Source of the DNA: Candidatus Binataceae bacterium
GTDB taxonomy: Bacteria; Desulfobacterota; Binatia; Binatales; Binataceae
Length of the DNA: 64,000 nucleotides
NCBI GenBank assembly: GCA_035493515.1
Contig: DATJID010000035.1
Span: 43,422 to 107,421 of the forward strand
Direction: 5' to 3'
The notes under the pieces were generated by a model. The model saw nothing but the letters and a program-made list of their open reading frames with translations, was not told where the DNA came from and did no database searches. Position 1 is the stretch's first letter; every line of letters begins with the position of its first letter. Positions 46,655 through 55,515 of this stretch are shown one piece after another. A program made the position numbers and the translations under genes.

Positions 46655-48679
46655 ATGCCGATGTCGCGGCCGTTATCGCTACGCACTGATGAGTTCAACT
46701 ACACGCTGCAGATTCTGCTGGCGGCGGCGGTCGGCGTGTTGGCCGCGCTGGGTAACTTGGGTTTTCGCGTACTGATCGAATTCTTCACCTGGGTCTTCCT
46801 GGGACTGGAATGGGGCGCGCTCGAAATCGACCGCGGCGGCTGGCAACTCGGACTGGTGCCGGTGGTTCTGCTGAGCGGCGGCGTCGGTATGATCCTGCTC
46901 AACCGGCTGTTTCCGGGCGACGTACTCGGCTACGGCTTCCCGAATTTTCTCGAAATGGTGAACCTCGGCAGCGCGCGGATCAAGCGGCGCTGGATTGTGC
47001 TCAAAGCGGTGGGCGCGGCGCTGTCGCTCGGATGCGGCGCCTCGGTCGGACGCGAAGGACCAATTGCGCAGATTGGCGGAGCGATCGGCTCGGCCGTCGC
47101 CCAATTGCGACGCCTGCCGGCTAACCGCGCCAAGGTCCTGATAGCGGCCGGCGCGGGCGCTGGAATCGCTACCACCTTCAACGCCCCGGTCGGCGGCGTG
47201 TTGTTTGCGCAGGAGATCGTGCTCCTCGGCGAGACCGAGCTCGGCAATCTGACATTATTGCTGGTTGCGACTGTGAGCGCAGTAGTCTTTTCGCGCGCGG
47301 TTACCGGCGATGGAGCGGTCTTTCAAACCCCGGTGTTCGTGATGCGCAGTTATTGGGAGCTGCTGCCATACGCCATGATGGGTGTGTTGTTGGGTGTGCT
47401 GGCCGCCGGCTACATCCGGTTCTTCAATACCACCGCCGCAGCCTTCCGCAAATTTAAGGTGTCACAGTGGGCGCGCCTGGCGCTGGGTTTGCTAATCGTC
47501 GGACTGATCGCGATTCCGTTGCCGCAGAACCTTTCCGACGGTTACCCGATAATAAATCGCGCGATGGAAGGGCGCTTCGAGATCGGGATGACGCTCGCGC
47601 TTACCGGGGCCAAGTTCTTCAGCTCCAGCGTGTCGCTCGCCTGCGGTGCGCCGGGCGGCGTTTTCGGCCCGACCTTTTTCATCGGCACGATGGCGGGGGC
47701 GACGTTTCAGCGCGCGATGGCTTTGCTACTGCCACAGATGACCGGCCCGCGCGGCTCCTACGCGCTGGTCGGATTGGGCACGTTTCTGTGCGGCGTGACC
47801 CACGCCCCCCTGACCGCGCTTTTTTTGCTGCTCGACATGACTCAGGATTACCAGATTGCACTGCCCGCGATGATCGCGATCGTTACTGCGCTGGTGGTCT
47901 CGCGCTCGCTCGAGCACGAATCCATCGACACCTATCGCCTCGCGCGCGAGGGCAAAACGCTCGAAATCGGCCGCGAACGGCTGGTGCTGACGCAGGTTCC
48001 GGTCGAAAGCGTGATGACGCACGATCCAGCGGTCGTGCACGCCGACGCGCCGCTCACGGCAATCCTGCAGGCGGCGGGCGAAACCGCGCAAACGACTTTG
48101 CCGGTGGTCGACGGCGCAGGCGAACTCGTCGGCCTCATCGTGACTCACGACCTGGTTGCGATGCTGGGCAGCCAGGCCGACGTCGCGGGCCTGGTCAACG
48201 CCTATGACATCTGCCGCCGCAACTGCCCGGTGGTGAGCAGCGACTCCAATCTCGACGAAGCCGCGCAATTGATGGAATCCGAGGGCCTCGAGGAATTGCC
48301 GGTGGTGGATGGTGCCGGCGGACCGCGCGCGCGTCATCTTGCCGGCCTCGTCGCACGCAAGGATATCGGCCAGGTCTTAAACCGCATGGCGGTGTCGCTC
48401 TCGACGCTGGCCAGCACCGGCACCAGCATCTTCTGGGCGACCGGCTATCGCCTGATCCGCGTCCTCGTGCCGCCGAGCGCGGAAGGCAAAACCATGGTTG
48501 AACTGGCACCGCGCGCGCGCTTCGGCGTGAGCGTGCTCGCGGTTCAGAAATCCGGATCGGACGAAGACGGGTTTACTCCCATTTCGCCTGACCGCAAGCT
48601 CGACGCCGGCGATACCATCATGGCCGCCGGGCGCCCGTCCGATCTGCGCCGCTTCATCCGCGAGCTTGAGGGAATGTAG
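46655..48679 (+). CDS. ClC-family voltage-gated chloride channel with tandem CBS domains and C-terminal TrkA-C domain
   Basis: GREGPIAQIG, GAPGGVFGP/GxFxP motifs, two CBS units, and a C-terminal TrkA_C-like segment (VSVLAVQKSGSDEDGFTPISPDRKLDAGDTIMAAG). Confidence 0.8.
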   Translation: MPMSRPLSLRTDEFNYTLQILLAAAVGVLAALGNLGFRVLIEFFTWVFLGLEWGALEIDRGGWQLGLVPVVLLSGGVGMILLNRLFPGDVLGYGFPNFLEMVNLGSARIKRRWIVLKAVGAALSLGCGASVGREGPIAQIGGAIGSAVAQLRRLPANRAKVLIAAGAGAGIATTFNAPVGGVLFAQEIVLLGETELGNLTLLLVATVSAVVFSRAVTGDGAVFQTPVFVMRSYWELLPYAMMGVLLGVLAAGYIRFFNTTAAAFRKFKVSQWARLALGLLIVGLIAIPLPQNLSDGYPIINRAMEGRFEIGMTLALTGAKFFSSSVSLACGAPGGVFGPTFFIGTMAGATFQRAMALLLPQMTGPRGSYALVGLGTFLCGVTHAPLTALFLLLDMTQDYQIALPAMIAIVTALVVSRSLEHESIDTYRLAREGKTLEIGRERLVLTQVPVESVMTHDPAVVHADAPLTAILQAAGETAQTTLPVVDGAGELVGLIVTHDLVAMLGSQADVAGLVNAYDICRRNCPVVSSDSNLDEAAQLMESEGLEELPVVDGAGGPRARHLAGLVARKDIGQVLNRMAVSLSTLASTGTSIFWATGYRLIRVLVPPSAEGKTMVELAPRARFGVSVLAVQKSGSDEDGFTPISPDRKLDAGDTIMAAGRPSDLRRFIRELEGM

Positions 48680-48775: not shown

Positions 48776-49861
48776 ATGCGCGCTGCCGTCATGCGTAACA
48801 AAAAACTCGTGGTCGACGATATTGCGACGCCCGCGCCGGGTCCCGGCGAAGCGCTGGTCAAGACACTCGCCTGCGGAATTTGCGGCTCCGATCTGCATGC
48901 GCTCAAGCACGCCGAGAAACTGGTTGAAGGGGCGCGGCGCTCCGGCGGCCCGTTCATCATGGATCTGGCGCGCGACGTCGTGATGGGCCACGAGTTCTGC
49001 GCCGAGGTCGTCGACTACGGACCCAAGACCCAGCGCCGCTTCAAGCCCGGCGCGCGAGTTTGTGCGATGCCCGTGCTGATTCGGCCGACCGGGGCCGAGA
49101 CGGTCGGCTACTCCAACGACCATCCCGGCGGTTACGGCGAGTTCATGCGGCTGACCGAGAAGCTGTTGCTCGAGGTGCCTAACGGGCTTGCGACCGAGCG
49201 CGCCGCGCTGACCGAGCCGCTCGCGGTCGGCTATCACGCGGTGGCCAGGGCCCGGATGGAGAAGGATGACGCGCCGCTGGTAATCGGATGCGGCCCGGTG
49301 GGCCTCGCCGTCATCGCCGCGCTCAAGCTCAAGGGCGTGCATCCGATCGTCGCGGCGGATTTCTCACCGCGCCGCCGCGCGCTGGCGCAGGAGATGGGCG
49401 CCGACGTGGTGGTCGATCCCAGGGAGAAGTCGCCATACGAAAGCTGGCGCGAACTCGCGGCCTATAGAGATCCCGCGCGCGCGCCGCAACTGCCGCCCTG
49501 GATGCCGGGGCCGGTGCTGCGGCCGGCGGTGATCTTTGAATGTGTGGGGGTGCCGGGCGTGATCGAAGCGATAATGGCCGCGGCGCCGGCCCATGCGCGG
49601 ATGGTAGTGGTCGGCGTTTGCATGGAGCGCGACCATATCGAGCCGCTGTTCGGGATCAACAAGGAATTGAACCTGCAGTTCGTCCTCGGCTATACCGGCG
49701 AAGAATTCGCCGACACGTTGCGCAACCTGGCCGAGGGCAAGGTCAACGGCGATCCGCTGGTGACCGGGAAAGTCGGAGTCGAAGGGGTCGCGCAGGCCTT
49801 CGAGGATCTGGCCTCGCCCGAGCGGCACGCGAAAATTCTAGTCGAGCCATGGCGTAGCTGA
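48776..49861 (+). CDS. zinc-dependent alcohol dehydrogenase (MDR family)
   Basis: CGICGSDLHA catalytic-zinc motif; GCGPVGLAVIAALKLKG Rossmann. GGAGGA RBS 8 nt before the ATG at 48776; the track start at 48734 is a TTG. Confidence 0.8.
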   Translation: MRAAVMRNKKLVVDDIATPAPGPGEALVKTLACGICGSDLHALKHAEKLVEGARRSGGPFIMDLARDVVMGHEFCAEVVDYGPKTQRRFKPGARVCAMPVLIRPTGAETVGYSNDHPGGYGEFMRLTEKLLLEVPNGLATERAALTEPLAVGYHAVARARMEKDDAPLVIGCGPVGLAVIAALKLKGVHPIVAADFSPRRRALAQEMGADVVVDPREKSPYESWRELAAYRDPARAPQLPPWMPGPVLRPAVIFECVGVPGVIEAIMAAAPAHARMVVVGVCMERDHIEPLFGINKELNLQFVLGYTGEEFADTLRNLAEGKVNGDPLVTGKVGVEGVAQAFEDLASPERHAKILVEPWRS

Positions 49862-49869
49862 ACGCGGGT

Positions 49870-50544
49870 CTATTCGCTCGCCCCCGGAGCCGCCGCGTCT
49901 TCGAAACGAAAGGGGCGGGCGCGGCCCGCGCGCAGTTCCGTGCACAAACCCTCGACGTCGCTCACCGCGCGCTCAAGTTCCGTCGCGCAAGTGAGGAACC
50001 ACTTCGGCGTTACGAAATGCGCGTCGCTGCCACCGACGCCGACCAGCCCGAGCTTCTCGGTCGCGACCCGGGCCGCCTCGTTTTCACGTGGCGAATTCTG
50101 CCCGTTGAGCGCCTCGATCACGCCGAGCGCCGCGCCATGGCGCGCCAGCAGATCGTCGAGCTGCGGACCGAAGCCGGAGTCGCGGAACGGATGCGCCGGA
50201 ATCGCGATTCCGCCTTCACCGTGGACCACTTCGATAAGCTGGTCGCTCTTGAGCATCCGCGAACTCAGGTCGAAGCGCCGTAGCACCTCGCGCGTGACCC
50301 CGTACAGCAGCAAATGGCCCAGGTTGGTGTCGGCCTCGATCCCCTTGAACACCATCACGCCGAACCGCTCCGTCAACTCGGCGTAACGCAGGTCGAGCGC
50401 CGGATCGGCCGGGAACAGGCGATGCTCGGTGAAGCAGATCGCGTCGAGCCGCCGCGGCGACCGCGCCGCGGCCTCAACGTAGGCGTCGGGCGCGATGTTG
50501 GAATCCGAAGAGAGCAGCGTATGAACATGCAGGTCGATAAGCAT
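49870..50544 (-). CDS. PHP-domain phosphoesterase
   Basis: MLIDLHVHTLLSSD N-terminal PHP motif, further His/Asp clusters (CFTEHR, IPAHPF, GGSDAHF); 224 aa. The upstream 140 aa of the track ORF are Arg-rich junk. Confidence 0.7.
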   Translation of the reverse strand: MLIDLHVHTLLSSDSNIAPDAYVEAAARSPRRLDAICFTEHRLFPADPALDLRYAELTERFGVMVFKGIEADTNLGHLLLYGVTREVLRRFDLSSRMLKSDQLIEVVHGEGGIAIPAHPFRDSGFGPQLDDLLARHGAALGVIEALNGQNSPRENEAARVATEKLGLVGVGGSDAHFVTPKWFLTCATELERAVSDVEGLCTELRAGRARPFRFEDAAAPGASE

Positions 50545-50633
50545 AATTGATGATTCCCGGCTTGCCGGTGCGGCCTTGAAACGCGTCCTGCAATCGCGCG
50601 CGGCGGACGAATTACGGCTCTGTCGCGGGCGCT

Positions 50634-52256
50634 CTACGGAACGCCGCTTTGCACTCGTATATTGTCTTTGAGCGAAACCACGCCCGCGACGTTCAACGCC
50701 AGCATCTGCACCATCGCTTCGTCGGTCGCGGTCGGTACCGTGCCCGTCAGCACCATCGTGTCTCCGACCATACGGAAGTGCACGCCGGTCAGGCCGCCGG
50801 CGTCGAGCGCGGCGCGAAAAGCGTCCAGCCGCGCGGCGCGAAATTCCAAGGGCGGCGAATCGGGGCCCGGCGCTCCGGGCTCCGCCTCCGGCGCTGGCAG
50901 GCCAGGTGCGGGCGCGTCGGCGCGGGTCGCGTCGGGCGGATTGGCTCCCGAATCGGTTCCGCCTCCGACCAGGTTCAGGCACGAGACCGCTCTGACTGCC
51001 GCGAAAGTTCCCACGAAGATCAACACCAGCACCAGGATCGGACGGCGCGCGCCGCGCGTGCGGCGAGATACCGGCGCGCCGCTGGGCGCGAAACGCGCGC
51101 GCTCCTCGCTCGCGGGTGGAACCGACAAGAGCACGGTAGAGGCTTCATGATCGGCCGGAGCGCCGGCTGGGGCGGCGGGCGGCGCGAAACTCACCTCCGC
51201 GCCGCAGAAGGAACAGAAGCGCGAGTCGGAGGGAATCGCCCGTCCGCATTCGCGGCAATCGAATTCCGCCTCCGTACGGAGCACCGTGGGCGCCGACGGT
51301 GACGCGGCTCGCGGAGCGCCGGCGCTCCCGAGCGGCAGCTGAAGCTGCGAACGTGCGCCGGAGGGCGGCGGCGCCGGCGCGGCTGATTGCGCCTCTTCCG
51401 TCGCGCTCGCTTGTGCTCCGTCGTTGGCGTGCTCCGGCCGGTCCGCCCCAACGCCGCCGAGGCGAATCTCTTCCAGCCGGCGCTTGAATTCCGCTGCGCT
51501 TGGCACGCGCCGCTCGACGTCGTAGGCGAGCGCGTCGTCCACCAGCGCCGCCAGCGCGGGCTCGACCTCGGGACATAACCTGCCGAGCGGCGGAAAGCTG
51601 AAGGGCGCTTCATTGGCCGGGTCGCGGCCGCTAAGCGCGTGATGCATCGTGGCGCCGAGCGCGTAAAGATCCGAGCGCTGCTCGACCTTGCCGCGGTATT
51701 GCTCGGGCGGCGCATAGCCCTGGGTGCCGATCATGGTCGCGTTTTGCTGCGGCTGGAAATGGCGCGCGATACCGAAGTCGATAAGCTTGGCCTGTCCGTT
51801 GACCATCATCATCACGTTGGACGGCTTGAGGTCGCGGTAAATCACCGGCGGTTCGAGTCCGTGCAGGTACTCAAGCGTGGCGAGAATTTGCAGCGCGATA
51901 TCGATTGTGCGCGGCTCGGCCAACCGCCCACCGGTTTGCTTCATCTCCTCTTCGAGCGTCGCGCCGTCGATATATTCCATCACCAGGTAATGACGGTTCT
52001 GTTCGCTGAAGCGGTCGAAGACGCGGGGGATGTGCTCGTTGTTGAGCCGCGCCAGCATGTCGGCCTCGCGCTGGAAGGCGTCGACCGCCTGGCGCTGCGC
52101 GTCGGGGTTGGTGAAATTGTCCACCACCTCGGCCAATGCGCAGCGGCGCGCGGCGAGGCGCAGGTCCTCGGCCAGGTAAACCAGCTTCATCCCGCCGCCG
52201 CCCAGTGGCTTCACGACACGGTAGCGGCCGCCGACTATGGTGTTTGGAGCAATCAT
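50634..52256 (-). CDS. Hanks-type Ser/Thr protein kinase with Zn-ribbon, TM segment and C-terminal BON domain
   Basis: GGGGMKLVY Gly-loop/Lys, HRDLKPSNV catalytic loop, DFG, APE. Then CRECG...CSFCG, a TM (ILVLVLIFVGTFAAV), and a BON-like C-terminus (VHFRMVGDTMVLTGTV...SLKDNIRVQ). Confidence 0.8.
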   Translation of the reverse strand: MIAPNTIVGGRYRVVKPLGGGGMKLVYLAEDLRLAARRCALAEVVDNFTNPDAQRQAVDAFQREADMLARLNNEHIPRVFDRFSEQNRHYLVMEYIDGATLEEEMKQTGGRLAEPRTIDIALQILATLEYLHGLEPPVIYRDLKPSNVMMMVNGQAKLIDFGIARHFQPQQNATMIGTQGYAPPEQYRGKVEQRSDLYALGATMHHALSGRDPANEAPFSFPPLGRLCPEVEPALAALVDDALAYDVERRVPSAAEFKRRLEEIRLGGVGADRPEHANDGAQASATEEAQSAAPAPPPSGARSQLQLPLGSAGAPRAASPSAPTVLRTEAEFDCRECGRAIPSDSRFCSFCGAEVSFAPPAAPAGAPADHEASTVLLSVPPASEERARFAPSGAPVSRRTRGARRPILVLVLIFVGTFAAVRAVSCLNLVGGGTDSGANPPDATRADAPAPGLPAPEAEPGAPGPDSPPLEFRAARLDAFRAALDAGGLTGVHFRMVGDTMVLTGTVPTATDEAMVQMLALNVAGVVSLKDNIRVQSGVP

Positions 52257-52274
52257 CGCAACGGGTCGCGGTAG

Positions 52275-52682
52275 TTAATGCGACGGCGGTCCTGCCGTCA
52301 ACGCCCGGGAGGCGCGAATCCCGCGCCGCTCCGCGTCCAGCGCCGCGGCGCGCGCCGCTGACACTGCGCAAACCAGGTGAATAAGTAGGCCCAGCGACGT
52401 CGAAATTCCGTAAGCGAACAGCGCCCCGAAAAACCATCCGACCGCGCGCCCCGTGCGCCCCGCGTAAAAATGGCCGAGCCCCGGCACCATACTCAGCACG
52501 AACGCGATAAGCGCGGGCGAATTCAGATCGCCGAACCATCCCGCAACTCCGAGCCGCGCGCCGCACTGTTTGCAGAACACCGCCGCCGGGACTACCACCG
52601 GCTGGCCGCACTGCGAACAGAAACGCGCCCGCGTGGTTGCCGTTTGGGCGATTCCCGTGCCGGCCATGCGGATTTCAGCCAT
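52275..52682 (-). CDS. zinc-ribbon + TM2-domain small membrane protein
   Basis: MAEIRMAG start at 52682 overlaps the FHA-gene stop. CSQCG...CKQCG, then TM2-like GLGHFYAG with two hydrophobic helices. Confidence 0.5.
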   Translation of the reverse strand: MAEIRMAGTGIAQTATTRARFCSQCGQPVVVPAAVFCKQCGARLGVAGWFGDLNSPALIAFVLSMVPGLGHFYAGRTGRAVGWFFGALFAYGISTSLGLLIHLVCAVSAARAAALDAERRGIRASRALTAGPPSH

Positions 52683-53982
52683 GGAACACAAACGGTGCGT
52701 CGCCCAGCCGCACTTCGTCGCCGTTGGCGAGCTGGCGTGACCCGTCGATCCGCTGGCCGCGGATGAAGGTGCCGTTCTGGCTGGAGAGGTCGCGCAGCGC
52801 GAAGCCGCCGTTTTGCGGCACGATAGTGGCGTGATGGCGCGAGACCGAAGCGTCGGCGACCACGATGTCGTTGTCGATCGCGCGGCCCAAATTCGTGGGC
52901 GCGCGCGGTCGCAACTCGTGCCGGCTGCCGTTTGCGTCAACCAGGCATGGCGTCGCCATCCGACCGACGTGCGGCGGCACCGCGGGCCGCGCGGGTTCGC
53001 CGTATTGACCCTCCTGGCGCACGACGGCGGGACGCGGCCCGGCACTCGCGCGCTTGAGATGGAAGCTCAATTCGTAGTCGGAAATTTTGATCCGGTCGCC
53101 CTCGCGCAGCTCGGCGGTTTCGATTCGGCTGCCATTGAGCGACACGCCCTGCTGCACGGCGAGGCTTTTCAGCACGTAGGTGTTGCCATGGCGCTCGATC
53201 ACCGCATGGCGCGGCTGCACGCCGGGGTCGCCAAAAAGTCCGACCGCATTTTCTTCGGCGCGCCCGAGCGTAGCCGCGGCGCGATCGATATTGAAGCTGC
53301 GCCCGCGCAGCCGCCCGGCCTCGACATTTAGCCACGCGCTCTTGGTCAGCTCTTGCACCAGCCCGATCAGCAGTCCGACCGCCAACCCGAGCGCGCACAA
53401 TCCGAACAGCCGCGAATATAGCCCGCTGGCGTTGGCTCCGATGACGTCGAAGGCCACGCCGCCAGCGAAGCCGCCCACCCATCCGCCGACTGCGCCCTTT
53501 ACGATGTTGCGTAGCGAACCCCCGAGGTCCTTGAGCGAGCCGCTCGCGAGGCCCACGCCGGCGCCGCAGATAAAGCCCATCAGGACCCATCCGATTACCC
53601 GCGCGATACGCAGATAGATCTCCGAACCAGGCTGGTTGGCGCCCCATCCGCCGGCCGACAGGATCATCGTGAAGACGAGATTGGAGTAATAAACCGCGGG
53701 CAACCCGATGAGGAAGCAGACCACGAGTCCGATTAAAAAGCGCCGCGTTGCCGCCGGCGAAAACTGCAGGCTTTTGCCCTGCGCCGCCACGATCAATCCA
53801 CCGACCAGCCCCCAGAACAATGCCATAGAGGCGACGCCCGCTATTTGGGTCCAGACGTCCTCGACCTGCGTGATGCTGTGGCCATGGCTGACCAGCTCGA
53901 CCGGAATCCATCCGAGCGCCCCGCCGATGAGTCCGGCCAGGGCCAGAAAGGTAAGTTCACGGCGGTCAATGGCGTCGTTCAT
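52675..53982 (-). CDS. polytopic membrane protein with two C-terminal FHA domains
   Basis: ~230 aa multi-TM N-terminus. FHA1 (GRAEENAVGLFGDPGVQPRHAVIERHGNTYVLKSLAVQQGVSLNG) and FHA2 (GRAIDNDIVVADASVSRHHATIVPQNGGFALRDLSSQNGTFIRG). Confidence 0.75.
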   Translation of the reverse strand: MNDAIDRRELTFLALAGLIGGALGWIPVELVSHGHSITQVEDVWTQIAGVASMALFWGLVGGLIVAAQGKSLQFSPAATRRFLIGLVVCFLIGLPAVYYSNLVFTMILSAGGWGANQPGSEIYLRIARVIGWVLMGFICGAGVGLASGSLKDLGGSLRNIVKGAVGGWVGGFAGGVAFDVIGANASGLYSRLFGLCALGLAVGLLIGLVQELTKSAWLNVEAGRLRGRSFNIDRAAATLGRAEENAVGLFGDPGVQPRHAVIERHGNTYVLKSLAVQQGVSLNGSRIETAELREGDRIKISDYELSFHLKRASAGPRPAVVRQEGQYGEPARPAVPPHVGRMATPCLVDANGSRHELRPRAPTNLGRAIDNDIVVADASVSRHHATIVPQNGGFALRDLSSQNGTFIRGQRIDGSRQLANGDEVRLGDAPFVFHG

Positions 53983-54273
53983 CGCGGCGAACCCATCCTC
54001 ATAATTTGGGCCTCGTGGTGTGAACAGAAGGCTGTCACAGGGCTCGACAAAGGGTTCGGCATCATCATTGAGACTTCAAATGCGCCATCCGTCGCGGCGC
54101 GCAATTAGTATAATAACCCGGCTTACGGATGCGGCAAACATCGAGCGAAGCCACATCCGCTCACCACTATATGTGAGCCGGAGTGCATCGAGGTTGGCGC
54201 GCGCGGGTTGCCCCTCTCAACGCAAACGGTACATTATTCGGATTCACGGATGGAGTAAGAACGGCAGGAGGTC

Positions 54274-55515
54274 ATGATGGCGGAGAATACCCTTGTACCT
54301 GAGGCATTTGGACCGTTGCAGGGGGTGAAAATCGTCTCGAGCGGCACCCTGATCGCCGAGCCGTTTGCCGCCGCGCTCGCCGCCGACATGGGAGCCGAGG
54401 TGATCCAGGTCGAACGCCCCGGCGTGGGCGACATGGGATGGCGGACGGTCGGCATCCGGCTCAAGACACGCGACGGCAAGGGCGAGACCGCGACCAACTG
54501 GGTACAGGAGCGGCGCAACGTTTTTTGCATCTCGCTCGACCTTACCCGGCCGCGCGGGCGCGAGTTGTTTCTGCGTCTGCTCGAACGCGCCGACATCTGG
54601 ATGGAAAGCTCCAAAGCCGGAACCTATCCGAAATGGGGTCTCGACGATCCCTCAGTATGGAAGGTCAATCCCAAGCTGGTGATCACTCACGTCAGCTCCT
54701 ATGGTCAGTACGGACATCCCGACTATGTCGGCCGCACGTCGTACGACATCGTGGGGCAGGCCTTCGGCGGCATCATGTACCAGACCGGCTTTCCCGATAC
54801 GCCGCCCTCGCGCGCCGCACCGTGGACCGGGGACTACCTGACGGCGCTGTTCACGCTATGGTCCTCGCTGGCGGGACTGACTTACGCGCGGACCTTCGGC
54901 AAGGGACAAGCGATCGATCTCGCGCAATACGAAGCAATTCATCGCACGCTCGGCGGCACGATGGTCGAGTACTTTCAGCAGGGCCTGGTGCGCGAGCGCT
55001 CGGGCAACAAGGCGCAGGGCTTTCAGCCGCTCGATAGCTTCGAGGCGAGCGACGGATGGGTGGTGCTGGGCGCGATCGGCGAGGTTTACGATCGCGTGGT
55101 GCGCGCCATCGGTCTCGATCCGGCCGACTCGAAGTGGCAAAAAGCGCGGCTGGACATCGAGTCGATGGAAGGGATCGAATTCGACGCGCTGTTGCGCGGA
55201 TGGATCAACGAACGGCCCGCGCTGGAAGTCGTACGGCACATGAACGAGCACAACGTCGCCTGCAACCGCATCATGTCGAGCAAGGATATGGCGGAGAACG
55301 AGCAGTATCGGGCACGCGACATGCACGTCGAATGGACCGACGAGCAGGCGGGCAAGGTCAAGGGCGTTGGGATCGTGCCTAAGTTCTCGGAGACGCCAGG
55401 CAAGATTTTCCGCGGCGCGGTGGGCGTCGGCCACGACAATGATCGGGTGTACGGCGAGCTTTTAGGCCTGAAGCCGACGGAGATTGAAGCGCTCAGGCGC
55501 GAGAAGCTGATTTAG
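54274..55515 (+). CDS. CoA-transferase family III (CaiB/BaiF) protein, second copy
   Basis: LQGVKIVSSGTLIAEPFAAALAADMGAEVIQVERP family III N-terminus; 413 aa. Confidence 0.8.
   Translation: MMAENTLVPEAFGPLQGVKIVSSGTLIAEPFAAALAADMGAEVIQVERPGVGDMGWRTVGIRLKTRDGKGETATNWVQERRNVFCISLDLTRPRGRELFLRLLERADIWMESSKAGTYPKWGLDDPSVWKVNPKLVITHVSSYGQYGHPDYVGRTSYDIVGQAFGGIMYQTGFPDTPPSRAAPWTGDYLTALFTLWSSLAGLTYARTFGKGQAIDLAQYEAIHRTLGGTMVEYFQQGLVRERSGNKAQGFQPLDSFEASDGWVVLGAIGEVYDRVVRAIGLDPADSKWQKARLDIESMEGIEFDALLRGWINERPALEVVRHMNEHNVACNRIMSSKDMAENEQYRARDMHVEWTDEQAGKVKGVGIVPKFSETPGKIFRGAVGVGHDNDRVYGELLGLKPTEIEALRREKLI

What the first reader, a model, noticed from the sequence alone, without database searches (positions are those of the whole stretch)
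49870..53982. Compact eukaryotic-like signalling module: double-FHA membrane protein, Zn-ribbon/TM2 protein, Hanks kinase with BON domain, PHP phosphoesterase
Four co-directional, tightly spaced or overlapping genes on the minus strand, in transcription order:
- a polytopic membrane protein ending in two FHA phosphothreonine-binding domains;
- a small zinc-ribbon protein with a TM2 domain (GLGHFYAG), overlapping the previous stop;
- a Ser/Thr kinase whose C-terminal half has another zinc ribbon, a TM segment and a BON domain, a fold associated with membrane or phospholipid binding;
- a PHP-family phosphoesterase.

FHA plus STK pairing is well established. A PHP-domain enzyme, rather than a PP2C, in the phosphatase position is unusual; PHP phosphatases normally partner BY-kinases. 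Combining BON, TM2 and double-FHA modules is uncommon.
Basis: partly seen in the sequence, partly recalled or inferred. Interest (0 to 1): 0.6.

Follow-up and report, generated by a model that had tools for sequence, protein, structure and literature searches.

The report
Binataceae kinase–FHA–PHP membrane signalling operon
The four genes are real and keep the same order in about 80 related soil-bacterium genomes; they form a membrane-bound protein-phosphorylation module with a kinase wired like animal WNK kinases and two membrane genes that elsewhere belong to a ubiquitin-like system, but the PHP enzyme's role as phosphatase is unproven.

Summary
Four co-directional minus-strand genes lie at exactly 49870-53982:
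- a 6TM protein with two FHA domains;
- a zinc-ribbon/2TM protein;
- a Hanks kinase with zinc ribbon, TM segment and BON domain;
- a PHP phosphoesterase.

The order recurs in 75 of 79 informative species-level Binataceae genomes and survives changes of flanking genes.

Three findings change the picture.
1. The kinase lacks the canonical beta3 lysine (A42). It carries an invariant lysine in the glycine-rich loop (K24), at the position of WNK1 K233. This defines a monophyletic clade of at least 50 bacterial 50%-identity clusters.
2. The first two genes are an older pair. In 21 other metagenome loci, 6TM-FHA homologues sit inside E1–JAB–RING–E2 ubiquitin-like operons with no kinase or PHP gene beside them (one unrelated kinase about 7 kb away in L096), and a Zn-ribbon/2TM gene follows them in most.
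3. The PHP protein is not a CpsB/YwqE-type tyrosine phosphatase. Its nearest characterised relatives are RNase AM and nucleotide phosphoesterases. Adjacency breaks in about 5 genomes.

Its role as the kinase's phosphatase remains an inference from position and writer/eraser analogy (about 0.3). I file the locus as a new variant of kinase–FHA signalling.

The parts
54110..54137 (-). Sigma-70-like promoter candidate (TTGCCG-16-TATTAT) about 128 nt upstream of the FHA start, in the divergent intergenic region
   Evidence: It was the only promoter-like site in 49500-54400. The expected number is 0.6, so this is weak evidence.
52675..53982 (-). Gene 1: 6TM-FHA-FHA membrane protein, 435 aa
   Evidence: Orthologues are 43-97% identical in L007-L086.
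53320..53982 (-). Six-helix membrane domain (aa 1-221), glycine-rich (GGWVGGFAGG), ending in the invariant IGLVQELTKxAW helix
   Evidence: Hydropathy. AF2 model has pLDDT 86 with six helices. No Pfam hit. No PDB fold match: best E 0.07, TM 0.30 or lower. It is homologous to the 6TM-FHA proteins of E1-E2-RING-JAB operons.
53068..53271 (-). FHA1 (aa 238-305), non-canonical. It keeps G240-R241 and H259, but has Q256 in place of the pThr-contacting Ser and Q278 in place of Asn
   Evidence: The same type of FHA is the only one in the ubiquitin-operon homologues.
52702..52893 (-). FHA2 (aa 364-427), canonical pThr reader: G366-R367, S381, H384, N403
   Evidence: Pfam best stretch. Best PDB relatives are Rv1747 FHA (2.5e-16), EmbR and GarA. 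Absent from the ubiquitin-operon homologues.
52275..52682 (-). Gene 2: Zn-ribbon + 2TM hairpin protein, 135 aa. Start overlaps the gene 1 stop by 8 nt. Zn ribbon at 52551-52625 (CxxC...CxxC invariant); TM hairpin at 52338-52520 (PGLGHxYxG motif)
   Evidence: Overlap with gene 1 occurs in 60 of 62 complete loci.
50634..52256 (-). Gene 3: receptor-type Hanks Ser/Thr kinase, 540 aa
51462..52223 (-). Kinase domain (aa 12-265). K24 codon is at 52185-52187 and A42 codon at 52131-52133. E64, Y140-R141-D142, K144, N147, D160-F161-G162, T174 and T178 are intact
   Evidence: StkP alignment puts A42 opposite the VAVK lysine. WNK1 alignment puts K24 opposite K233 and A42 opposite C250. K24 and A42 are invariant in 72 orthologues. 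Codons checked.
51192..51257 (-). Cytoplasmic Zn ribbon of the kinase (aa 334-355). It is flanked by conserved Thr324 (SAPT) and Thr374, which are candidate FHA docking sites
   Evidence: The docking role is inference.
50976..51044 (-). Single TM segment of the kinase (aa 405-427), preceded by a basic stretch
50643..50837 (-). Extracytoplasmic BON domain (aa 474-538)
49870..50544 (-). Gene 4: cytosolic minimal PHP-fold metal-dependent phosphoesterase, 224 aa. Candidate metal ligands H6, H8, D14, H41, E70, H77, H118, D174 and H176 are invariant

Best explanation
This is a vertically inherited, membrane-anchored Ser/Thr phospho-signalling operon found, with the searches possible here, only in the uncultured family Binataceae.

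Proposed mechanism, step by step:
- Sensor and writer. The kinase is a receptor-type Hanks kinase. Its C-terminal BON domain faces the periplasm and probably reports on the envelope or membrane state. Its cytoplasmic catalytic domain is predicted to be active, using a lysine moved from strand beta3 (A42) to the glycine-rich loop (K24), as in eukaryotic WNK kinases.
- Phosphorylation. On activation the kinase phosphorylates threonines in its activation loop (T174/T178) and probably in its linker (conserved T324, T374) or in its partners.
- Reader. The canonical second FHA domain of the 6TM-FHA protein reads these phosphothreonines.
- Effector or target. The 6TM-FHA protein, with the translationally coupled Zn-ribbon/2TM protein, is the membrane effector or target.
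- Origin of the pair. This gene pair is older than the cassette. Elsewhere it is embedded in E1–JAB–RING–E2 ubiquitin-like conjugation operons. In Binataceae that writer/eraser set is replaced by kinase plus PHP, and a pThr-reading FHA2 has been added.
- Eraser. By position and by this analogy the PHP enzyme is most likely the eraser (phosphoprotein phosphatase) or another kinase-linked hydrolase.

Shown: the genes, the domains, conservation of order, the lysine relocation, and homology of the pair to the ubiquitin-operon genes.

Inferred: topology, kinase activity, FHA2 docking, the signal sensed, and above all the PHP substrate. I put about 0.75 on the three-gene kinase/FHA circuit and about 0.3 on PHP being a protein phosphatase.
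For: Conservation of order:
- Same order and strand in 75 of 79 informative species-level genomes.
- PHP follows the kinase in 9 of the 10 Binataceae-type metagenome loci that reach past the kinase gene.
- The cassette persists with different flanks: CoA-transferase/CLC, CoA-transferase/ADH, FemAB/luciferase-like.

Operon-like junctions in 62 complete loci:
- FHA|Zn genes overlap in 60.
- Zn|kinase gaps are 1-74 nt.
- Kinase|PHP gaps have a median of 50 nt. 24 are 17 nt or less, and 2 overlap by 4 nt.

Kinase:
- All catalytic motifs are present except the beta3 lysine.
- K24 and A42 are invariant in 72 orthologues.
- Alignments to StkP and WNK1 support the residue assignment.
- Among 150 nearest 50%-cluster representatives, 59 alignments are K24/A42 and 97 have no K24 but K42. 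None has both lysines.
- The K24 sequences form one exclusive NJ clade.

Other domains:
- BON is confirmed at family level.
- FHA2 is canonical and closest to STPK-regulated mycobacterial FHA domains.

The older gene pair:
- All 21 non-Binataceae loci of 5 kb or more carry ubiquitin-system genes (E1, JAB, RING and/or E2) beside the 6TM-FHA gene. The full E1–JAB–[6TM-FHA]–[Zn-ribbon-2TM]–RING–RING/Trypsin–E2 order is seen in the longest loci.
- None of these loci has a kinase or PHP gene beside the 6TM-FHA gene; L096 has one unrelated kinase about 7 kb away on the other strand.

PHP:
- Candidate metal ligands are invariant.
- No PP2C-like ORF was found in the window or in L001-L086.
Against: PHP:
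- Sequence and fold neighbours are TM0559 (uncharacterised), RNase AM, PsfC, Cv1693, the PolIII PHP domain and EndoQ. No protein phosphatase is among them.
- PHP is more conserved (62-98% identity) than the other three genes (38-97%), as a housekeeping enzyme might be.
- PHP is separated from the kinase by inserts or an inversion in L030, L053 and L044, and stands alone in L056.
- PHP is precisely absent between kinase and CLC in L153.

Synteny:
- Flanking genes (CoA-transferase in roughly 50 of 80 loci, CLC in 44 of 80) are also syntenic. Within-family adjacency alone is therefore weak evidence of functional linkage.
- Three other K24/A42 kinases have no FHA, Zn-ribbon or PHP neighbours.

Limits:
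- No experiment exists for any component.
- The organism is uncultured.
- The cassette was not seen outside Binataceae-type genomes in these searches.
Confidence: 0.5

Rival explanations
1. The signalling unit is only the first three genes. The PHP gene encodes a housekeeping nucleotide or oligoribonucleotide phosphoesterase (pAp phosphatase, nano-RNase or similar) that happens to lie at the end of a syntenic block, and may be co-transcribed without acting on phosphoproteins.
For: - Closest characterised relatives are RNase AM/YciV (profile E 9.8e-7) and Cv1693. JGI annotates the family as TrpH.
- PHP is the most conserved of the four genes.
- PHP is kept next to CLC without the trio in L056, and after rearrangements in L030, L044 and L053.
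- The trio is kept without PHP in L153.
- The kinase|PHP gap is wider than the other two junctions.
Against: - The protein lacks the roughly 75-aa insertion domain of RNase AM and Cv1693.
- It reaches only 31 bits against a cut-off of 375 for NCBIfam RNase RNM.
- PHP stays with the kinase when the flanks change to FemAB/luciferase-like.
- 24 of 62 gaps are 17 nt or less, and 2 junctions overlap by 4 nt.
- No other phosphatase gene was found in the cassette.
Confidence: 0.3
2. The cassette is a conflict or anti-phage system. The kinase senses infection, and the glycine-zipper 6TM-FHA protein is a membrane-damaging effector. The relatives in E1–E2–RING–JAB operons would resemble other bacterial ubiquitin-like immune pathways.
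For: - The kinase domain hits PADLOC PD-T4-6 and mad6 models.
- The PHP N-terminus hits candidate PDC-M49A at 2e-8.
- 6TM-FHA homologues live in ubiquitin-like operons that also encode a trypsin-like protease.
- Some bacterial ubiquitin-like operons are immune systems (PMC11601596).
Against: - The PADLOC kinase hits are generic kinase-domain matches.
- The FHA and Zn-ribbon proteins hit nothing in PADLOC.
- The cassette sits at a conserved chromosomal position among metabolic genes in about 80 species. That pattern fits vertical core-genome inheritance, not a variable defence island.
- No mobile-element signature was seen, apart from integrase-like ORFs upstream of the lone PHP gene in L056.
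Confidence: 0.1
3. The kinase is a pseudokinase or scaffold because it lacks the VAIK lysine. The module would then signal by binding, not by phosphotransfer.
For: - A42 replaces the beta3 lysine.
- The seven bacterial STK families described as pseudokinases all show loss of the VAIK lysine (bioRxiv 10.1101/2025.01.12.632604).
Against: - D142, K144, N147, D160-F161-G162, E64 and the Gly-rich loop are all conserved.
- K24 is invariant and sits at the position of the catalytic WNK1 K233.
- G24->K and K42->A co-vary among the nearest relatives, and no sequence has both lysines.
- WNKs with the same arrangement are active kinases (PMC1821047).
- A canonical pThr-reading FHA2 is encoded in the same operon.
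Confidence: 0.1

Closest known systems
Mycobacterial PknA/PknB – FhaA/FhaB(FipA) – PstP cluster, and other Hanks kinase/FHA/PP2C operons such as T6SS PpkA–Fha1/TagH–PppA
   Same: - A receptor-type Hanks kinase is encoded with FHA-domain partners and one hydrolase gene in a single operon.
- FHA2 is closest to STPK-regulated mycobacterial FHA domains: Rv1747, EmbR, GarA.
- NCBIfam's best FHA hit is FhaB/FipA.
   Different: - No PP2C is present; a PHP-fold enzyme sits in its place.
- The extracellular sensor is BON, not PASTA.
- The FHA protein is a 6TM protein with one degenerate and one canonical FHA domain.
- A Zn-ribbon/2TM protein is added.
- The kinase lacks the beta3 lysine.
- No cell-wall, division or T6SS genes are nearby.
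Eukaryotic WNK ('with no lysine') kinases
   Same: - The catalytic lysine is moved to the Gly-rich loop. GGGGM-K24-LVY matches WNK1 GRGSF-K233-TVY.
- The beta3 motif is ALA42-E versus WNK1 AWC250-E.
- Both have PP[VI]I[YH]RDLK before the catalytic loop.
   Different: - Identity to WNK1 is only 29%. The best relatives are bacterial StkP and PknB, and the sister clade has a canonical lysine. This points to convergence, not orthology.
- The metal-binding motif is DFG, not WNK's DLG chloride-site motif.
- No CCT/PF2 domain was found by Pfam.
PHP-family protein tyrosine phosphatases (CpsB, YwqE, PhpA, Php1) paired with BY-kinases
   Same: - PHP superfamily fold with an HxH motif and a metal site.
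- The gene lies next to a protein kinase gene.
   Different: - There is no detectable subfamily similarity. hhalign probability is 3.6% and covers only motif I.
- CpsB and YwqE are absent from the PDB profile hits at E up to 10 and from Foldseek hits at E up to 1e-3.
- The partner here is a Hanks kinase, not a BY-kinase.
- Known PHP-PTPs are pTyr-specific (PMC6759763).
TrpH/YciV (RNase AM), Cv1693 and TM0559 group of small PHP phosphoesterases
   Same: - Best sequence hits are RNase AM 7ug9 at 9.8e-7 and Cv1693.
- Best fold hit is TM0559 2anu at 1.8e-11, TM 0.69, of the same length.
- PHP_C is present.
   Different: - The insertion domain of RNase AM and Cv1693 is missing. About 55 aa stand where they have about 130.
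- Scores are far below the NCBIfam equivalog cut-offs.
- Operon context is a kinase. TM0559 itself is uncharacterised.
Prokaryotic E1–E2–RING–JAB ubiquitin-like conjugation operons. The Pfam Prok-RING_1 family comes, from memory, from Burroughs, Iyer and Aravind 2011; I could not check this in the held library.
   Same: - Genes 1 and 2 of the cassette are homologous (6TM + FHA1) or architecturally equivalent (Zn ribbon + 2TM) to the adjacent gene pair in these operons.
- The two genes are in the same order.
   Different: - Those operons have ThiF E1, UQ_con E2, two RING proteins (one fused to a trypsin-like protease), JAB and DUF2752. They have no kinase or PHP gene beside the pair and no second FHA domain.
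- The Binataceae cassette has none of the ubiquitin-system genes.

Membership tests
Hanks-type (eukaryotic-like) Ser/Thr protein kinase, Pfam PF00069 | Significant match to the Pkinase profile above the gathering score | tested here: met
   122 bits against a cut-off of 31.7. StkP and PknB are the best PDB hits, at 1e-34 to 1e-29.
Hanks-type (eukaryotic-like) Ser/Thr protein kinase, Pfam PF00069 | Beta3 VAIK lysine pairing with the alphaC glutamate | tested here: not met
   A42 aligns with the StkP VAVK lysine. This is invariant in 72 orthologues. The alphaC E64 is present.
Hanks-type (eukaryotic-like) Ser/Thr protein kinase, Pfam PF00069 | Catalytic loop HRDxKxxN, DFG, and an activation loop ending in APE | tested here: met
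   Y140-R141-D142-L-K144-P-S-N147, D160-F161-G162, and T174/T178 followed by PPE.
WNK kinases | Catalytic lysine in the Gly-rich loop (beta2) with a non-lysine at beta3 | tested here: met
   K24 aligns with WNK1 K233, and A42 with C250. The covariation is clean and clade-specific.
WNK kinases | Closest relationship to eukaryotic WNKs, and WNK-specific features (DLG chloride site, CCT/PF2 domains) | tested here: not met
   Identity to WNK1 is 29%, while bacterial StkP and PknB score higher. The motif is DFG, not DLG. Pfam finds no CCT/OSR1_C domain. It works like a WNK in lysine placement but is not a member.
FHA domain (PF00498), phosphothreonine reader | Profile match, two copies | tested here: met
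   116 bits over 2 stretches.
FHA domain (PF00498), phosphothreonine reader | pThr-contact residues: GR, Ser, His, Asn | tested here: inconclusive
   FHA2 has all of them: G366-R367, S381, H384, N403. FHA1 has GR and His, but Q256 and Q278 replace Ser and Asn. Binding was not assayed.
BON domain (PF04972) | Profile match above the gathering score | tested here: inconclusive
   The window protein scores 18-21 bits against a cut-off of 27. 19 of 26 orthologues match at E up to 0.05, best 1.4e-6. The family profile hits OsmY at 1.8e-6 and the Rv0899 BON domain at 4.6e-6. I accept it as BON at family level.
TM2 domain (PF05154) | Profile match above the gathering score | tested here: not met
   17.4 bits against a cut-off of 27.9. 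DUF6677 scores higher and in more orthologues: 22 of 23 versus 14 of 23. It is a TM2-like 2TM hairpin, not a confirmed TM2 member.
PHP superfamily (PF02811 + PF13263) | Profile matches above the gathering scores, and conserved metal-binding His/Asp/Glu motifs | tested here: met
   PHP scores 30.8 against 26.4, and PHP_C 35.3 against 21.3. H6, H8, D14, H41, E70, H77, H118, D174 and H176 are invariant. The model shows a PHP fold with pLDDT 82.
PHP-type protein tyrosine phosphatases (CpsB/YwqE) | Subfamily-level sequence or fold similarity to CpsB or YwqE | tested here: not met
   hhalign probability 3.6% over 42 columns. Neither is found at E up to 10 in the PDB profile search or at E up to 1e-3 in Foldseek.
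PHP-type protein tyrosine phosphatases (CpsB/YwqE) | Phosphoprotein phosphatase activity | not testable with these tools
   This needs an enzyme assay.
RNase AM / TrpH (COG0613) | Equivalog-level match, including the insertion domain | tested here: not met
   NCBIfam RNaseRnm scores 31 bits against a cut-off of 375. Only the N- and C-terminal barrel parts align, and about 75 aa are missing.
PP2C/PPM phosphatase partner | A PP2C gene in or next to the cassette | tested here: not met
   tblastn with PstP and PrpC found no hit at E up to 1 in the window or in L001-L086, nor at E up to 1e-4 in L091-L170.
6TM-FHA proteins of E1–E2–RING–JAB operons | Homology across the membrane domain and the first FHA domain | tested here: met
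   P0436 is 31% identical over 95% of the membrane domain, E 1.7e-6 database-wide. tblastn gives 1e-14 to 1e-25 against 21 loci. Invariant motifs are shown.
6TM-FHA proteins of E1–E2–RING–JAB operons | Operon context with E1, E2, RING and JAB genes | tested here: not met
   None of these genes is present in any Binataceae-type locus. The context there is kinase plus PHP.

The most novel reading that the evidence does not exclude
The PHP protein is the cognate phosphoserine/phosphothreonine phosphatase of the kinase. It would be the first PHP-fold Ser/Thr protein phosphatase. It would pair with a bacterial kinase clade that reinvented the WNK catalytic-lysine arrangement. Together they would have replaced an E1–E2–RING–JAB ubiquitin-like writer/eraser set on the same 6TM-FHA/Zn-ribbon membrane module. 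That would be a natural swap of one post-translational modification system for another on a conserved target.
Probability: 0.25. Interest if true: 0.8.

Novelty: new variant of a known kind. Interest (0 to 1): 0.6.

Why it matters
Three points are each testable with simple biochemistry.

1. A large, monophyletic bacterial kinase clade uses a Gly-loop lysine in place of the beta3 lysine. WNKs have been called the only functional ePK family lacking that lysine (PMC1821047). Such bacterial proteins risk being mis-scored as pseudokinases. In the term searches possible here, recent bacterial kinome surveys did not describe this arrangement.

2. The same membrane gene pair, 6TM-FHA plus a Zn-ribbon/2TM protein, is served by a ubiquitin-like conjugation system in many environmental bacteria. 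In Binataceae it is served by a kinase and a PHP enzyme. This links two modification systems to one unknown membrane function and gives a handle on both.

3. If the PHP enzyme dephosphorylates the kinase or its targets, the set of bacterial Ser/Thr phosphatase folds grows by one. If it does not, the cassette couples phospho-signalling to nucleotide or RNA-end hydrolysis, which would also be new.

Tried and rejected
- CpsB/YwqE-type phosphatase: rejected.
- Known defence system: the PADLOC kinase hits are generic, and the FHA and Zn-ribbon proteins hit nothing.
- Internal terminator or promoter separating PHP: terminator-like sites are at chance level (5 found, 4.5 expected), and none lies in the kinase|PHP gap.
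- General property of K24/A42 kinases: three other members (L088, L089, L090) have no FHA, Zn-ribbon or PHP neighbours. L087 was just another cassette copy with a split kinase.
- Chloride or WNK link through the neighbouring CLC gene: CLC is convergent next to PHP in 44 of 80 loci, but this is ordinary synteny. The kinase has DFG, not the WNK DLG chloride site. Not pursued beyond.
- Single-sequence metagenome scan with P0436: found nothing. The alignment-based scan worked.
- Taxonomy of the K24/A42 clade: cluster look-up gave no organism names. The only names seen were Binataceae and Candidatus Acidoferrum.
- Literature: term searches found no description of this cassette, of a bacterial beta2-lysine Hanks clade, or of 6TM-FHA proteins in E1–E2–RING operons. 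The held library lacks many subscription papers, so absence is not proof.
- tRNA and Rfam scans of the window: nothing found.
- Distribution outside Binataceae: this could not be resolved, because every capped search returns the many Binataceae orthologues first.

Full report
**Observation**

Four minus-strand genes occupy 49870-53982 exactly as described.
- A 435-aa protein at 53982..52675.
- A 135-aa protein at 52682..52275, whose ATG overlaps the previous stop by 8 nt.
- A 540-aa kinase at 52256..50634, after an 18-nt gap.
- A 224-aa PHP protein at 50544..49870, after an 89-nt gap. The longer 370-aa GTG ORF is an artefact of ORF listing.

The block is bounded by a divergent CoA-transferase gene and a convergent alcohol-dehydrogenase-like gene. 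A single promoter-like site lies upstream of gene 1, and no convincing terminator lies inside the block.

Pfam confirms two FHA domains, a protein kinase domain, a zinc ribbon in the kinase and in the small protein, and PHP plus PHP_C.

Hydropathy gives six TM segments in the FHA protein, a two-TM hairpin in the small protein, one TM in the kinase and none in PHP.

- BON is below threshold in the window protein. It is found in 19 of 26 orthologues, and a profile of the C-termini hits OsmY and the Rv0899 BON domain at about 1e-6.
- The 'TM2' hairpin is below threshold and is matched better by DUF6677.

**Source and conservation**

Homologues of the PHP protein are named Candidatus Binataceae wherever a name exists.

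A scan of one genome per GTDB species found 238 genomes with a relative. The best 80 are all Binataceae/Binatia-type MAGs.

In 75 of the 79 informative loci the order FHA – Zn-ribbon – kinase – PHP is kept on one strand. Protein identities to the window are:

| Gene | Identity |
|---|---|
| FHA | 43-97% |
| Zn-ribbon | 38-96% |
| Kinase | 50-94% |
| PHP | 62-98% |

Junction spacing is operon-like in 62 complete loci.
- FHA|Zn genes overlap in 60.
- Zn|kinase gaps are 1-74 nt.
- Kinase|PHP gaps have a median of 50 nt. 24 gaps are 17 nt or less, and two junctions overlap by 4 nt.

The flanks are partly conserved too: a divergent CoA-transferase in roughly 50 loci and a convergent CLC channel gene in 44. 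Synteny within this family is therefore generally high. Even so, the four genes stay together where the flanks differ (FemAB/luciferase-like, ADH and others).

Exceptions concern only PHP.
- Inserts of 3.3 and 2.3 kb separate it from the kinase in L030 and L053.
- The trio is inverted and lies 5 kb away in L044.
- PHP stands alone in L056.
- PHP is precisely absent between kinase and CLC in the metagenome locus L153.

**The kinase**

All catalytic motifs are intact except one: the Gly-rich loop, alphaC E64, Y140-R141-D142, K144, N147, D160-F161-G162, and activation-loop T174/T178.

Alignment to StkP places A42 opposite the VAVK lysine. An invariant lysine, K24, follows the Gly-loop Met (GGGGM-K-LVY). 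Both residues are invariant in 72 orthologues.

BLASTP then aligns K24 with WNK1 K233 and A42 with C250. This is the same relocation that defines WNK kinases, which Kannan et al. call the only functional ePK family lacking that lysine (PMC1821047).

Overall identity to WNK1 is only 29%, and the nearest solved relatives are bacterial. This points to convergence.

A HMMER search of 1.84 billion cluster representatives, followed by residue extraction, gave these counts among domain alignments to the 150 nearest proteins:
- 59 are K24/A42;
- 97 have a canonical K42 without K24;
- none has both lysines.

In a neighbour-joining tree of 132 kinase domains, the 51 K24 sequences form one exclusive clade.

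Clade members carry varied C-terminal domains: zinc ribbons, TPR, Sel1, FGE-sulfatase and BamE. The feature is therefore older and wider than this cassette.

A recent atlas of bacterial STKs and a pseudokinase review list seven families lacking the VAIK lysine. All are treated as pseudokinases, and WNK is mentioned only as a eukaryotic analogy. I found no description of a bacterial beta2-lysine clade, but I searched by terms only.

**The FHA protein and its partner**

FHA2 is canonical (G366-R367, S381, H384, N403). It is closest to mycobacterial FHA domains that read STPK phosphorylation: Rv1747, EmbR and GarA.

FHA1 keeps Gly-Arg and His but has Gln in place of the phosphate-contacting Ser (Q256) and Asn (Q278).

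The N-terminal 221 residues fold with confidence into a six-helix bundle (pLDDT 86). This domain has no Pfam family and no structural relative in the PDB.

A word-indexed search found almost only Binataceae fragments, plus one distant homologue, P0436. P0436 is encoded between a JAB gene and zinc-ribbon and RING genes.

An alignment-based metagenome scan then returned 185 relatives.
- All 21 non-Binataceae loci of at least 5 kb carry ubiquitin-system genes beside the homologue.
- In the longest loci the full operon order is ThiF-type E1 – JAB – [6TM-FHA] – [zinc-ribbon + 2TM protein] – Prok-RING_1 – Prok-RING_1/DUF4190/trypsin – UQ_con E2 – DUF2752. Pfam on L091 is, tblastn across loci, and the partner's architecture.
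- The zinc-ribbon/2TM partner was detected by tblastn in 14 of these 21 loci.
- None of the 21 has a kinase or PHP gene beside the 6TM-FHA gene. L096 carries an unrelated kinase about 7 kb away on the other strand.
- These homologues have only the FHA1-type domain.
- The 14 Binataceae-type loci from the same scan have the Zn-ribbon gene and the kinase (plus PHP where the contig allows) and none of the ubiquitin-system genes.

Genes 1 and 2 are therefore an older membrane module. In Binataceae its ubiquitin-like writer/eraser set has been exchanged for a kinase and a PHP enzyme, and a phosphothreonine-reading FHA2 has been added.

**The PHP protein**

The candidate metal ligands are invariant: H6, H8, D14, H41, E70, H77, H118, D174 and H176. 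The AF2 model is a PHP barrel (pLDDT 82).

Fold neighbours are TM0559 (uncharacterised and of the same size), RNase AM, BVU_3505, PsfC, Cv1693, PolIII/PolC PHP domains and EndoQ.

Sequence profile hits are RNase AM (9.8e-7), PsfC, histidinol phosphatases and Cv1693.

CpsB and YwqE, the PHP protein-tyrosine phosphatases, are not detected. A direct profile comparison with a validated CpsB sequence gives 3.6% probability over the HxH motif only.

Known PHP phosphatases are pTyr-specific partners of BY-kinases (PMC6759763).

The protein lacks the insertion domain of RNase AM and Cv1693, and is far below every NCBIfam equivalog cut-off. Its substrate cannot be read from homology.

For a kinase-linked role:
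- operon spacing;
- retention with the kinase when flanks change;
- no detectable PP2C gene in the window or in the neighbourhoods examined;
- the writer/eraser logic of the homologous ubiquitin-type operons, where JAB is the eraser.

Against it:
- nucleotide- and RNA-acting relatives;
- higher conservation than its neighbours;
- the five loci where PHP and the trio are uncoupled;
- three other K24/A42 kinases that have no PHP neighbour.

**Mechanism proposed**

- The BON domain senses an envelope or membrane cue.
- The WNK-type kinase domain autophosphorylates, on activation-loop T174/T178 and possibly on the conserved linker T324 and T374.
- FHA2 of the 6TM-FHA protein docks on phosphothreonine. 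This changes the state of the 6TM/Zn-ribbon membrane pair, whose function is unknown.
- PHP resets the system, or acts as a co-regulated hydrolase.

I put about 0.75 on the three-gene phospho-circuit, about 0.3 on PHP being a protein phosphatase, and about 0.3 on it being a nucleotide or RNA-end hydrolase unrelated to phosphoproteins.

A defence-system reading is unlikely. The cassette is a syntenic core-genome locus, and the PADLOC hits are generic. A pseudokinase reading is unlikely given the invariant K24 and the intact catalytic residues.

**Verdict**

The locus is not a member of any characterised system. It is a new variant of kinase/FHA signalling with three unusual features: WNK-type lysine placement, a PHP gene where a PP2C is expected, and a membrane module shared with ubiquitin-like operons. 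Nothing here has been tested experimentally, and the organisms are uncultured.

Noticed in passing
window 52131-52133 (A42) and 52185-52187 (K24), in the kinase gene 50634-52256 (-): The kinase lacks the beta3 VAIK lysine and has an invariant lysine in the Gly-rich loop at the WNK1 K233 position. This defines a monophyletic clade of at least 50 bacterial 50%-identity clusters with varied C-terminal domains.
   Followed up: yes
L091 5727-13030; also L095-L097, L102, L104, L105, L110, L113, L129 and others: Homologues of the 6TM-FHA protein sit in conserved operons: ThiF E1 – JAB – 6TM-FHA – Zn-ribbon/2TM – Prok-RING_1 – RING/DUF4190/trypsin – UQ_con E2 – DUF2752. The samples are marine, soil and sediment metagenomes. 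I found no description of this operon type with an FHA membrane protein in the held literature.
   Followed up: partly
window 46655-48679 (+); L001 8633-10693 and 43 other loci: A CLC channel gene with CBS and TrkA_C domains lies convergent to the PHP gene, 30-60 nt away, in 44 of 80 Binataceae loci. It stays next to PHP when PHP is separated from the kinase (L030, L044, L053, L056). In the window an ADH-like gene is inserted between them. This is probably plain synteny, but it is curious next to a WNK-like kinase.
   Followed up: partly
L153 9710-13447: A Binataceae-type locus with CoA-transferase | FHA–Zn–kinase | CLC in which the PHP gene is precisely missing. The kinase stop and the CLC stop are 16 nt apart.
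   Followed up: partly
L056 4400-7700: The PHP gene is present without the FHA–Zn–kinase trio within 7 kb. A TetR-like gene and integrase-like ORFs lie upstream, which suggests a rearrangement or an insertion.
   Followed up: no
L089 6001-8090: Another K24-type kinase (436 aa; S42 rather than A42 at the beta3 position) is followed by, and overlaps, a gene for a TIR_2-domain protein. This is a possible kinase–TIR conflict module.
   Followed up: no
L087 6001-7663: A cassette copy from a long-read assembly has the kinase split into 433-aa and 127-aa ORFs. This is probably a frameshift error, not a real truncation.
   Followed up: no
P0129 and P0177 (contig of 23,529 bp); P0131 and P0200 (contig of 17,439 bp): Pairs of different K24/A42 kinases, with TPR or FGE-sulfatase C-termini, are reported on contigs of identical length. 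This hints at several paralogues on the same contig.
   Followed up: no
window 56423-58099 (-): A 558-aa PfkB sugar-kinase/SIS fusion gene is part of the same syntenic block (PfkB-SIS, luciferase-like monooxygenase, CoA-transferase) upstream of the cassette in many Binataceae loci.
   Followed up: no
window 1-64000: There are no tRNA or tmRNA genes, and no Rfam family reaches its gathering score anywhere in the 64 kb window.
   Followed up: yes
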